Positions 9,814 to 10,480 of a DNA stretch of 64,000 nucleotides are shown here, in pieces (positions within the stretch are counted from its first letter, which is position 1; every line of letters begins with the position of its first letter). Under the pieces are notes generated by a model. The model saw only the letters and a list, made by a program, of their open reading frames with translations. It had not been told where the DNA came from and ran no database searches. Where the stretch lies: assembly GCF_001677475.2 (NCBI RefSeq), contig NZ_CP015229.1, one strand, 5' to 3'. This DNA is from Escherichia coli (GTDB lineage: Bacteria; Pseudomonadota; Gammaproteobacteria; Enterobacterales; Enterobacteriaceae). The translations under genes and the position numbers were made by a program.

Positions 9814-10173
9814 ATGCGTGTGTTTAAAACCAAATGGTTTGCAAGGGAAGCCAGGTCTCATGCAATAACAGATGAAGAGTTGTACCGGGCCATTTTAGAA
9901 ACGGAGCAAGGTAAAGCTGATGCACTTGGTGGTGGTGTTTTTAAAAAGCGCCTTCACCAAAATCGTGAGCGTGCAATTATTCTGGCGAAAGGGGGAAGCA
10001 ATTGGTTTTACACGTTTTTATATGCAAAAAAGGATATGTCGAACATCAATAGTCAGGAACTGGCTGGGTTTCGTGAACTTGCAAAGCATTATGCCTTCCT
10101 GACGAAAGCCCAACTAACAGCAATGATTAACACTAAAGAACTGACAGAGATCTGCTATGACTGCAAAAACTAA
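9814..10173 (+). CDS. Type II toxin, RelE-fold / HigB-2 (Gp49-like) family
   Basis: 119-aa protein with GGGVFKKRL...RERAIIL...FYTFLYAKKD pattern typical of HigB-2-like toxins; overlaps the downstream HTH gene by 17 nt; AGGA about 9 nt upstream of ATG. Confidence 0.55.
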   Translation: MRVFKTKWFAREARSHAITDEELYRAILETEQGKADALGGGVFKKRLHQNRERAIILAKGGSNWFYTFLYAKKDMSNINSQELAGFRELAKHYAFLTKAQLTAMINTKELTEICYDCKN

Positions 10174-10480
10174 ATTTAAAAGTCCTGCATTTGAGGCTAT
10201 TCACAGCGCAGCGGCTGGATTGTCCAGCGTCGATGCTATTTCTGCCGAAACAATGCGTACTTTTGACAAAGCCTGCCTGACCAGCGTGCAAGACTTACAA
10301 CCTGTTGAGATAAAAGCACTGCGGGAAAAATTAAAAGTGAGTCAGCCCGTCTTCGCTCACTATCTCAATACCAGCGTTTCAACTGTACAAAAATGGGAAA
10401 GTGGCGCTAAACGCCCCAATGGCATTTCATTAAAACTGCTCAGCATTGTGCAAAAACACGGGCTGGAGGTGCTGCTGTAA
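10157..10480 (+). CDS. Antitoxin, XRE-type HTH (HigA-2 / COG2944-like)
   Basis: 107-aa protein with C-terminal HTH (LREKLKVSQPVFAHYLNTSVSTVQKWESGAKRPNGISLKLL); toxin-first, translationally coupled arrangement. Confidence 0.55.
   Translation: MTAKTKFKSPAFEAIHSAAAGLSSVDAISAETMRTFDKACLTSVQDLQPVEIKALREKLKVSQPVFAHYLNTSVSTVQKWESGAKRPNGISLKLLSIVQKHGLEVLL

What the first reader, a model, noticed from the sequence alone, without database searches (positions are those of the whole stretch)
9814..10480. HigB2/HigA2-like toxin-antitoxin pair between nepI and yicN
A 119-aa RelE-fold/Gp49-like toxin gene is followed, with a 17-nt overlap, by a 107-aa XRE-HTH antitoxin gene. The toxin-first order and translational coupling are typical of HigBA-type modules. 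I do not recall this pair at the nepI-yicN junction in K-12, so it is probably strain-variable.
Basis: partly seen in the sequence, partly recalled or inferred. Interest (0 to 1): 0.5.

Follow-up and report, generated by a model that had tools for sequence, protein, structure and literature searches.

The report
HigBA2-type toxin–antitoxin gene pair
This is an ordinary, already-annotated two-gene toxin–antitoxin module (a RelE-like toxin that probably cuts mRNA, plus its DNA-binding antidote) that enteric bacteria have long carried between nepI and yicN and that E. coli K-12 and about two thirds of E. coli strains have lost.

Summary
ORFs 9814-10173 (119 aa) and 10157-10480 (107 aa) lie on the + strand and overlap by 17 nt.

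- **Toxin:** it is a full-length member of Pfam PF06296 (E 2.5e-40), the family that holds Vibrio cholerae HigB2. Its AlphaFold model matches HigB2 best among solved structures. All four mutationally tested HigB2 active-site residues are kept (R46, R53, Y70, K72).
- **Antitoxin:** it has a C-terminal XRE helix-turn-helix that is closest to V. cholerae HigA2, and a conserved N-terminal segment.
- **Conservation of the pair:** in 78 related loci from three proteobacterial classes the two genes are always adjacent. All 69 distinct loci carry the palindrome TAGCAC-N3-GTGCTA upstream; the window copy is at 9773-9787.
- **Tested relatives:** Coxiella ToxP/AntitoxP (31%/55% identity) and the apparent Salmonella orthologue relBE3ST (STM3777/3778).
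- **Distribution:** the pair is present in 1716 of 5426 complete E. coli genomes and absent from K-12. It sits at the same nepI-yicN site in Citrobacter and Klebsiella and beside nepI in Salmonella, so K-12 lost it.
- **Status:** both exact proteins are already in NCBI; the toxin and its operon partner carry TA-type names (the antitoxin is named only as an HTH regulator).

The parts
9681..10520 (.). 840-bp segment (43% G+C against 50.5% for the window) that holds the whole module. In K-12 MG1655 and ATCC 25922 a 41-bp filler takes its place.
   Evidence: Junction mapping against K-12 and ATCC 25922.
9766..9794 (.). Candidate operator, the inverted repeat TAAAGTATTGCAC-TTG-GTGATATACTTTA. Its core at 9773-9787 (TTGCACTTGGTGATA) is the local copy of the family palindrome TAGCAC-N3-GTGCTA, with 2 mismatches.
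   Evidence: Inverted repeat found. All 69 distinct related loci have a match with at most 2 mismatches within 130 nt upstream of the toxin (42 are perfect), against 2 such matches in 386,371 background positions. Window match. Binding by the antitoxin is inferred.
9783..9791 (+). Probable extended -10 promoter element, TGaTATACT, fused to the right arm of the operator.
   Evidence: Read directly from the sequence. The same TGnTATAGT arrangement is visible in most related loci. The simple -35/-10 scan found no canonical promoter, so this is an inference.
9800..9803 (+). Shine-Dalgarno AGGA, 10 nt before the toxin ATG.
   Evidence: Sequence. ACAGGATG is conserved in related loci.
9814..10173 (+). 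Toxin gene: 119 aa, pI 9.4, Pfam PF06296 (HigB2/ToxP-type RelE-fold toxin). Predicted catalytic residues are R46, R53, Y70 and K72.
10157..10480 (+). Antitoxin gene: 107 aa. It has a conserved N-terminal segment (about residues 7-41; motifs KSxAFxAIHS and TxRxFDxxC) and a C-terminal XRE helix-turn-helix (residues 46-102) of the HigA2 type.
10157..10173 (+). 17-nt overlap of the toxin 3' end with the antitoxin 5' end, consistent with translational coupling.
   Evidence: Exactly the same overlap occurs in 44 of 66 distinct related pairs.
10487..10580 (.). REP-like palindromic element at the right border of the variable segment, between the convergent antitoxin and yicN genes. It is also present in K-12, and it is a boundary feature rather than part of the module.
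   Evidence: The right junction falls at 10520/10521 inside this element. A weak sub-threshold Rfam match to the REP-derived naRNA4 lies at 10487-10552.

Best explanation
This is a chromosomal type II toxin-antitoxin operon of the HigBA2 / ToxP-AntitoxP class. One promoter just upstream of 9814 drives a bicistronic mRNA. The first gene makes a basic 119-aa RelE-fold toxin. By homology it enters the ribosomal A site and cleaves the mRNA being translated, using R46, R53, Y70 and K72, and so arrests translation and growth. The second gene overlaps the first by 17 nt and makes a 107-aa antitoxin. Its conserved N-terminal 40 or so residues bind and neutralise the toxin. Its C-terminal XRE helix-turn-helix dimer binds the palindrome at 9773-9787, which overlaps the -10 element, and so represses the operon. 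Shown here: the gene anatomy, family membership, fold, conservation of the catalytic residues, obligate gene pairing, the conserved operator-like palindrome, and the presence/absence pattern. Inferred: toxicity, mRNA cleavage, neutralisation and DNA binding.
For: - Toxin family: it matches Pfam PF06296 over its full length with E 2.5e-40. V. cholerae HigB2 belongs to the same family (PMC11980606).
- Toxin fold: the AF2 model has pLDDT 88.5, and its nine best PDB matches are all HigB2, followed by other RelE-type toxins.
- Catalytic residues: a profile alignment to the verified HigB2 sequence pairs R46/R51, R53/R64, Y70/Y82 and K72/K84. These are the residues whose mutation cuts HigB2 activity 170- to 3000-fold (PMC5416850). 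R46, R53 and K72 are nearly invariant in the family.
- Antitoxin: the best PDB sequence hit is HigA2 (E 8e-10). The modelled C-terminal domain superposes on HigA2 at 1.0-1.4 A rmsd with 40% identity.
- Antitoxin N-terminus: it is conserved from Alpha- to Gammaproteobacteria and is modelled with pLDDT 90-94 in a toxin-linker-antitoxin fusion.
- Pairing: all 78 untruncated related loci have the toxin followed directly by the antitoxin, and 62 of 66 distinct pairs overlap.
- Decay pattern: the four exceptions have a truncated toxin, three of them with an intact antitoxin (the fourth antitoxin is also cut short). Toxin-first decay is what a real toxin predicts.
- Operator: the palindrome is conserved in 69 of 69 distinct loci.
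- Tested relatives: Coxiella ToxP/AntitoxP (31%/55% identical) is growth-inhibitory, blocks translation, is rescued by AntitoxP, and AntitoxP binds both ToxP and the promoter (PMC10098735). The apparent Salmonella orthologue RelE3ST (69%/81% identical in the Infantis copy, beside nepI) reduced cultivability when over-expressed (PMC4366850).
Against: - No experiment on the E. coli pair was found in the searchable literature.
- In Salmonella the partner RelB3ST did not neutralise RelE3ST in the published assay.
- The Escherichia operator copy has 2 mismatches to the family consensus.
- The simple sigma-70 scan found no promoter.
- The relationship to HigB2 is remote: about 20% identity, and sequence and profile searches of the PDB missed it.
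- The toxin lacks the 6-residue Gly/Lys-rich insertion of the beta2-beta3 loop seen in HigB2 and ToxP.
- Position 70 is Tyr or Phe across the family.
- The AF2 fusion output gives no contact map, so toxin-antitoxin contact is not demonstrated.
Confidence: 0.85

Rival explanations
1. The module is attenuated or domesticated. The pair descends from a toxin-antitoxin module, but in Escherichia the toxin is weak or silent and the HTH protein mainly acts as an ordinary repressor, possibly with an influence on the divergent nepI gene.
For: The module has stayed at one chromosomal site beside nepI across Escherichia, Citrobacter, Klebsiella and Salmonella, which is unusual stability for a toxin-antitoxin module. 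The Escherichia operator is degenerate, with 2 mismatches. The O157:H7 allele has lost the toxin ATG (ATG to ATA). About 68% of E. coli genomes have lost the pair with no obvious cost. RelB3ST failed to neutralise its partner in Salmonella.
Against: In this window the toxin ORF, its start codon, its Shine-Dalgarno and all four catalytic residues are intact. The Salmonella orthologue's toxin was toxic. The operator lies about 190 bp from the nepI start codon, and nepI works in K-12 without the module.
Confidence: 0.1
2. The toxin is a RelE-fold protein that does not cleave mRNA but inhibits another target, as Salmonella SehA does when it binds RNase III.
For: SehA shows that a RelE/HigB-fold toxin can lack nuclease activity (PMC12817084). 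No biochemical data exist for this subfamily of PF06296 in Enterobacteriaceae.
Against: SehAB belongs to a different family: it is related to K-12 HigBA, its antitoxin is 142 aa, and its active site is not conserved. Here the RelE/HigB2 catalytic set is conserved, and the closer relative ToxP inhibits cell-free translation.
Confidence: 0.03
3. The main biological role is anti-phage abortive infection or stabilisation of a mobile element. This concerns the role of the module and is compatible with the same toxin-antitoxin mechanism.
For: Relatives lie on 167 plasmid records. ToxP/AntitoxP is tied to maintenance of the Coxiella plasmid. The antitoxin matches a phage protein family, phrog_2104, at E 1e-26. 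A near-identical 6.3-kb block holding the module occurs in several Acetobacteraceae genera.
Against: The toxin has no PADLOC defence-model match. Only one record in the phage collection matched, and that record is really a Salmonella chromosomal contig. In Enterobacteriaceae the module sits in a fixed core-genome site with no integrase, transposase or target-site duplication at its borders.
Confidence: 0.1

Closest known systems
Vibrio cholerae HigB2/HigA2 (VCA0468/0469; PDB 5JAA, 5JA8, 8A0X)
   Same: The toxin is in the same Pfam family, PF06296. The gene order is toxin first. HigB2 is the nearest solved structure to the toxin model, and all four tested active-site residues are conserved. The antitoxin has the same layout, an N-terminal neutralising segment followed by a C-terminal XRE HTH, with 40% identity in the HTH domain. 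A single inverted-repeat operator overlaps the -10 element.
   Different: Toxin identity is only about 20%. HigB2 is a peripheral PF06296 member (E 3e-8) while this toxin is a core member (E 2.5e-40). This toxin lacks the Gly/Lys-rich beta2-beta3 loop insertion. The operators differ: TAGCAC-N3-GTGCTA here against TGTACGC-N5-GCGTACA. The base-contacting residues differ too: S75/Q78/K79/A84 here against R68/E71/N72/R77. The N-terminus here is predicted as two helices, whereas in HigA2 it is a helix plus a strand. HigBA2 sits in the superintegron, this module in a core-genome site.
Coxiella burnetii ToxP/AntitoxP (QpH1 CBUA0028/CBUA0027)
   Same: This is the closest fully characterised relative: 31% (toxin) and 55% (antitoxin) identity over the full length. 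Its promoter carries a similar palindrome, GTTCAC-TTA-GTGATA, overlapping a TATAGT -10 element. Experiments showed toxicity, inhibition of translation, rescue by the antitoxin, and binding of the antitoxin to both toxin and promoter.
   Different: It is plasmid-borne and tied to plasmid maintenance. ToxP keeps the long beta2-beta3 loop. Its operator has not been mapped.
Salmonella Typhimurium relBE3ST (SL3744-SL3743 = STM3778/STM3777)
   Same: It is the positional orthologue beside nepI, with 69% (toxin) and 81% (antitoxin) identity in the Infantis copy, the same 17-nt overlap and the same type of operator. RelE3ST lowered cultivability when over-expressed.
   Different: Different genes, not yicN, lie downstream of it. 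RelB3ST did not neutralise the toxin in the published assay. The link between the SL and STM locus numbers is my inference, based on the numbering offset and on the protein mass (11,754 Da published, 11,736 Da computed).
Rts1 HigBA, E. coli K-12 HigBA (ygjN/ygjM) and Salmonella SehAB
   Same: The gene order is toxin first, the toxin belongs to the RelE superfamily, and the antitoxin has an HTH.
   Different: The toxins belong to other Pfam families (PF05015, PF09907). The antitoxin architecture differs (SehB is 142 aa with a structured N-terminal dimerisation domain). SehA is not a nuclease.

Membership tests
PF06296 (HigB2/ToxP-type RelE-fold toxins) | A significant, full-length match to the Pfam PF06296 profile. 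| tested here: met
   E 2.5e-40, 137.9 bits, residues 1-113 against model positions 1-120 of 120. The control V. cholerae HigB2 hits the same family at E 3.3e-8.
PF06296 (HigB2/ToxP-type RelE-fold toxins) | A RelE/BECR fold, with HigB2 as the nearest solved structure. | tested here: met
   The AF2 model has pLDDT 88.5. The top nine Foldseek PDB hits are all HigB2 (probability 1.0, TM 0.45-0.61), followed by HigB1, Cami1, RelE, YafQ and YoeB. This rests on a predicted structure, not a solved one.
PF06296 (HigB2/ToxP-type RelE-fold toxins) | Conservation of the functionally tested HigB2 active-site residues R51, R64, Y82 and K84. | tested here: met
   hhalign pairs them with R46, R53, Y70 and K72. 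R46, R53 and K72 are nearly invariant in 38 homologues, while position 70 is Tyr or Phe.
PF06296 (HigB2/ToxP-type RelE-fold toxins) | Ribosome-dependent mRNA cleavage and growth arrest when the toxin is expressed alone. | not testable with these tools
   Only relatives have been tested: ToxP, RelE3ST and HigB2.
HigA2-type antitoxins | A C-terminal XRE helix-turn-helix dimerisation and DNA-binding domain of the HigA2 type. | tested here: met
   Pfam HTH_3 covers residues 52-96. The best PDB sequence hit is HigA2, E 8e-10. The model superposes on 5J9I at 1.0-1.4 A rmsd with TM 0.81-0.85.
HigA2-type antitoxins | An N-terminal segment that binds and neutralises the toxin. | tested here: inconclusive
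   The N-terminal motifs are conserved across three proteobacterial classes. Residues 7-36 are modelled at pLDDT 90-94 in the fusion with the toxin, with beta-bridges at residues 7 and 41. No contact map and no antitoxin-alone control were available.
HigA2-type antitoxins | An inverted-repeat operator overlapping the operon's -10 element. | tested here: met
   A palindrome lies at 9766-9794. The family-wide TAGCAC-N3-GTGCTA occurs in 69 of 69 distinct loci, 25-37 nt before the gene in most. Actual binding was not tested.
Type II toxin-antitoxin operon (general) | Two small, co-directional, adjacent or overlapping genes whose pairing is conserved across genomes. | tested here: met
   The overlap here is 17 nt. 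All 78 untruncated loci are paired, and 62 of 66 distinct pairs overlap.
Type II toxin-antitoxin operon (general) | The antitoxin neutralises its cognate toxin. | not testable with these tools
   Results for relatives are mixed: AntitoxP rescues ToxP, but RelB3ST did not neutralise RelE3ST.
Gp49 / Rts1-type HigB (PF05973, PF05015) | A match to the Gp49 or HigB-like Pfam profiles. | tested here: not met
NCBIfam NadS (NF041265) and MqsA family (TIGR03830) antitoxins | A score above the curated cut-off. | tested here: not met
   The scores were 41.3 bits against a cut-off of 60, and 41.1 bits against a cut-off of 61.8. Only the HTH part matches.
SehAB / K-12 HigBA | An antitoxin of about 140 aa with a structured N-terminal dimerisation domain, and a toxin of the PF09907 type. 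| tested here: not met
   The antitoxin here is 107 aa and of the HigA2 type, and the toxin is PF06296.

The most novel reading that the evidence does not exclude
The module has stayed at one core-genome site beside nepI through the divergence of Escherichia, Salmonella, Citrobacter and Klebsiella. It also has a family-wide invariant operator and recognition helix. In Salmonella the antitoxin did not neutralise the toxin. Together these facts do not exclude that in Enterobacteriaceae the pair has been domesticated into a regulatory unit. In that reading it could link translation stress to the divergent purine-nucleoside exporter nepI, or it could need a third factor for neutralisation, rather than acting as a simple selfish toxin-antitoxin module.
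Probability: 0.06. Interest if true: 0.45.

Novelty: already known. Interest (0 to 1): 0.15.

Why it matters
It matters little beyond correct annotation. The pair can be named a HigBA2/ToxP-AntitoxP-type module (PF06296 toxin plus HigA2-type antitoxin) in place of the generic labels 'RelE/ParE family toxin' and 'helix-turn-helix protein'.

Three by-products may help toxin-antitoxin researchers:
- a family-wide candidate operator, TAGCAC-N3-GTGCTA, whose right arm is fused to an extended -10 element;
- evidence that the module is ancestral at nepI-yicN and that K-12 represents a loss;
- a natural set of E. coli strains with and without the module (32% against 68% of complete genomes) for fitness or persistence comparisons.

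Tried and rejected
**Searches that found nothing**
- Sequence searches of the PDB with the toxin alone and with two profiles (26 and 38 sequences) returned nothing, even at E <= 10. The link to HigB2 came only from fold search and hhalign.
- NCBIfam has no model that hits the toxin.
- PADLOC gave no toxin hit.
- The consensus promoter and terminator scan gave zero sites in 9600-10650.
- Rfam gave only a sub-threshold REP-derived match.
- The RNA fold of the 3' flank is not unusual (z = -0.96).
- Literature searches for the locus (nepI/yicN, O157, E. coli HigB2) found no experimental study of the E. coli pair.

**Leads rejected or downgraded**
- Salmonella SehAB, and with it the RNase III-inhibition mechanism, was rejected. 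SehAB is in the K-12 HigBA family and has a 142-aa antitoxin.
- The K-12 41-bp filler may be a relic of the toxin gene. There is one ungapped 16/19 match to toxin codons 29-35, and the three differences fall at third codon positions. It is the only such match in the window. However, gapped local alignments with equal or better scores occur elsewhere by chance, so I keep it only as a hint.
- The first MAFFT alignment of filled against empty sites misplaced the left flank. I remapped the junctions by anchored extension.
- One paper that lists STM3777-STM3778 is marked as retracted. I used it only for the locus names.

Full report
**1. Observation.** The window contains ORF 9814-10173 (+, 119 aa, ATG) and ORF 10157-10480 (+, 107 aa, ATG). 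The two share 17 nt, 10157-10173. An AGGA Shine-Dalgarno lies at 9800-9803. A 99.1%-identical locus in E. coli DSM 103246 is annotated nepI (divergent) / 'type II toxin-antitoxin system RelE/ParE family toxin' / 'helix-turn-helix domain-containing protein' / yicN (convergent) / adeQ / adeD. Transferred to the window, that places the nepI start at 9586 and yicN at 10596-11048. PGAP starts the toxin at GTG 9820 (117 aa). The ATG at 9814 is intact here and the N-terminus MRVFKT is conserved in relatives, so I keep 119 aa.

**2. The toxin.** It matches Pfam PF06296 ('RelE') over its whole length, E 2.5e-40, and no other family at E <= 10. In particular it does not match Gp49. Gerdes (mBio 2025, PMC11980606) places V. 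cholerae HigB-2 in PF06296. I checked this with the HigB2 sequence, which I recalled and then verified as identical to PDB 5JA9 chain C. It hits PF06296 at E 3.3e-8.

- The window's toxin is therefore a core member of the family and HigB2 a peripheral one. That explains why phmmer and two profiles failed to reach any PDB chain.
- An AlphaFold2 model built on 26 homologues (pLDDT 88.5) has all nine best Foldseek PDB hits on HigB2. Mycobacterium tuberculosis HigB1, Cami1, RelE, YafQ and YoeB follow.
- hhalign of a 38-sequence profile against HigB2 aligns residues 37-87 with HigB2 42-99. It pairs R46/R51, R53/R64, Y70/Y82 and K72/K84.
- Those four HigB2 residues were shown by mutation to be needed for translation inhibition (PMC5416850).
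- R46, R53 and K72 are nearly invariant in the family, while position 70 is Tyr or Phe.
- The enterobacterial subfamily lacks the 6-residue Gly/Lys-rich insertion in the beta2-beta3 loop.

**3. The antitoxin.** Pfam finds HTH_3 at residues 52-96. The NCBIfam NadS and MqsA-family models hit only the HTH region and fall below their cut-offs.

- The best PDB sequence hit is V. cholerae HigA2, E 8e-10, over residues 46-102.
- In a fusion model the C-terminal domain superposes on HigA2 at 1.0-1.4 A rmsd with 40% identity, and the top eight hits are all HigA2.
- The residues with which HigA2 reads its operator (R68, E71, N72, R77; PMC11006873) correspond here to S75, Q78, K79 and A84 (alignment). 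A different DNA specificity is therefore expected.
- The N-terminal 40 or so residues carry motifs (K8-S9-x-A11-F12-x-A14-I15-H16-S17 and T32-x-R34-x-F36-D37-x-x-C40) that are invariant or nearly so from Alpha- to Gammaproteobacteria.
- I built a toxin-(GGGGS)5-antitoxin fusion with a paired 31-row alignment. In the model (pLDDT 80.8, pTM 0.64) antitoxin residues 7-36 have pLDDT about 90-94, form helices at 10-24 and 30-40, and show beta-bridges at residues 7 and 41.
- That is consistent with a toxin-binding segment, but the tool gives no contacts, so I rate this feature inconclusive.

**4. The pair as a unit.** A scan of one genome per species found 443 relatives, of which 80 loci were kept.

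- In all 78 loci not cut by a contig end, the toxin is followed at once by a homologue of the antitoxin, at 54-100% identity.
- Among 66 distinct pairs, 62 overlap by 11-29 nt, and 44 of them by exactly 17 nt.
- The four exceptions have a truncated toxin (44-98 aa). Three of them keep a full 107-aa antitoxin. This is the expected way for a real toxin-antitoxin pair to decay.

**5. Operator and promoter.** The window has an inverted repeat at 9766-9794, TAAAGTATTGCAC-TTG-GTGATATACTTTA.

- Upstream regions of the related loci show a shared palindrome, TAGCAC-N3-GTGCTA.
- All 69 distinct loci have a copy with at most 2 mismatches within 130 nt of the toxin start, and 42 copies are perfect. Only 2 such matches occur in 386,371 other positions of the same loci.
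- The copy usually ends 25-37 nt before the gene.
- Its right arm is fused to TATAGT or TATACT, which gives TGnTATAgT, an extended -10 element (read). In the window this is TGATATACT at 9783-9791.
- The window core, TTGCACTTGGTGATA at 9773-9787, has 2 mismatches. On its own that is not significant in 64 kb (3 matches found, 1.8 expected). Its significance comes from its position and from the family.
- The simple -35/-10 scan found nothing, so the promoter is inferred.
- V. cholerae HigA2 also binds one inverted repeat over the -10 element, but a different one, TGTACGC-N5-GCGTACA.
- The Coxiella toxP promoter reads TTGACA-17 nt-TATAGT and contains GTTCAC-TTA-GTGATA.

**6. Experimentally studied relatives.**

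- Coxiella burnetii ToxP/AntitoxP (QpH1 CBUA0028/0027) is 31% and 55% identical to the window's pair. ToxP blocks growth and cell-free translation. AntitoxP rescues growth, binds ToxP and binds the promoter (PMC10098735).
- In Salmonella the pair beside nepI is STM3777/STM3778. By the locus-number offset and the protein mass (11,754 Da published, 11,736 Da computed for serovar Infantis) it corresponds to relBE3ST (SL3744-SL3743) of Lobato-Marquez et al. 2015. RelE3ST lowered cultivability, but RelB3ST did not neutralise it.
- Salmonella SehAB, which inhibits RNase III, is a different family related to K-12 HigBA with a 142-aa antitoxin. I rejected it as a model.
- I found no study of the E. 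coli pair itself.

**7. Distribution and history.**

- The full nepI-yicN interval matches in 1716 of 5426 complete E. coli genomes. The other genomes match only the flanks.
- K-12 MG1655 and ATCC 25922 are empty, and O157:H7 and ST69 are filled.
- Anchored comparison shows that window 9681-10520 (840 bp, 43% G+C against 50.5% for the window) is replaced in K-12 by 41 bp. The right junction lies in a REP-like element. There are no direct repeats and no mobility genes.
- The same nepI-[toxin-antitoxin]-yicN arrangement occurs in other Escherichia lineages, in Citrobacter amalonaticus and in six Klebsiella species. In Salmonella the pair lies beside nepI.
- The protein identities (toxin 65-72%, NepI 80-91%) fit vertical descent. 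The module is therefore ancestral at this site, and the K-12-type allele is a deletion.
- The 41-bp filler holds one 16/19 match to toxin codons 29-35, with the three differences at third codon positions. Chance local alignments of the same size exist, so this is only a hint.
- Outside Enterobacteriaceae the context differs, and relatives lie on 167 plasmids.

**8. Mechanism, novelty and verdict.** The best-supported model is a classical type II toxin-antitoxin operon of the HigBA2/ToxP-AntitoxP class. It comprises a RelE-like, ribosome-dependent mRNA-cleaving toxin and an antitoxin that neutralises through its N-terminus and autorepresses through an HTH dimer on the palindrome over the -10 element. 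Translation of the antitoxin is coupled to that of the toxin through the 17-nt overlap.

- Shown here: anatomy, family, fold, catalytic residues, obligate pairing, conserved operator and distribution.
- Inferred: toxicity, cleavage, binding and repression.
- The exact 119-aa and 117-aa toxin sequences and the exact antitoxin are already in NCBI. They are named 'addiction module toxin RelE', 'type II toxin-antitoxin system RelE/ParE family toxin' and 'helix-turn-helix domain-containing protein'.
Interest is low.

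Noticed in passing
window 1-8300 (minus strand, runs off the left end): A very large inverse autotransporter adhesin gene (annotated EaeX/Air, or IatC in some strains) lies next to nepI. The best complete E. coli genomes, SMS-3-5 and others, are only 93.7% identical over window 1-9700, far less than for the toxin-antitoxin region (99.1%). Only 713 genomes cover at least 80% of that stretch.
   Followed up: partly
L004 (E. coli O157:H7 SS NE 1040-1), position equivalent to window 9814-9816: The O157:H7 allele has ATA in place of the toxin ATG start codon. Translation would then have to start at the GTG two codons on, 16 nt from the Shine-Dalgarno. This may attenuate the toxin, and it probably explains why PGAP annotates a 117-aa product.
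   Followed up: partly
L002 (K-12 MG1655) 2047-2087, compared with window 9898-9916: The 41-bp filler at the empty K-12 site contains GAAACGGAACAGGGCAAAG, a 16/19 match to toxin codons 29-35 (E-T-E-Q-G-K). All three differences are at third codon positions. It may be a relic of the deleted toxin gene, but it is statistically weak.
   Followed up: yes
L071-L083 (Gluconacetobacter, Acetobacter, Brytella, Gluconobacter, Acidomonas, Endobacter; Asaia L079 has the same toxin-match statistics but was not compared at DNA level): The ten loci compared (L071, L073-L076, L078, L080-L083) are the same 6.3-kb block, including the toxin-antitoxin pair, with only 2-66 mismatches across different genera of Acetobacteraceae. 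This is either a recently spread mobile element or cross-contamination between assemblies from one sequencing project.
   Followed up: partly
L016 (Mixta theicola), L038 (Lonsdalea quercina), L040 (Candidatus Pantoea formicae), L062 (Winslowiella iniecta): The toxin gene is truncated to 44-98 aa in all four. In three of them the antitoxin remains a full 107 aa. The toxin decays first, as expected for a functional toxin family.
   Followed up: partly
L006 and L042 (contigs of a MAG labelled Collinsella sp. Map_57_008): Two 1-kb contigs of an actinobacterial MAG carry E. coli-type (96-100% identical) and Klebsiella-type copies of the module, with nepI or yicN fragments beside them. This is almost certainly contamination of the bin.
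   Followed up: no
L086 3721-4176 (Coxiella QpH1 CBUA0028): The annotated 151-aa ToxP start lies upstream of the gene's own TTGACA/TATAGT promoter and palindrome. The alignment to the family begins at Met31 (MRIFKT), so the real product is probably 121 aa.
   Followed up: partly
window 10487-10580: A REP-like element lies between the convergent antitoxin and yicN genes. It gives a sub-threshold Rfam hit to the REP-derived naRNA4 (27 bits against a gathering score of 59.5). The right border of the presence/absence polymorphism falls inside it, which suggests that REP-associated recombination may have caused the deletion.
   Followed up: partly
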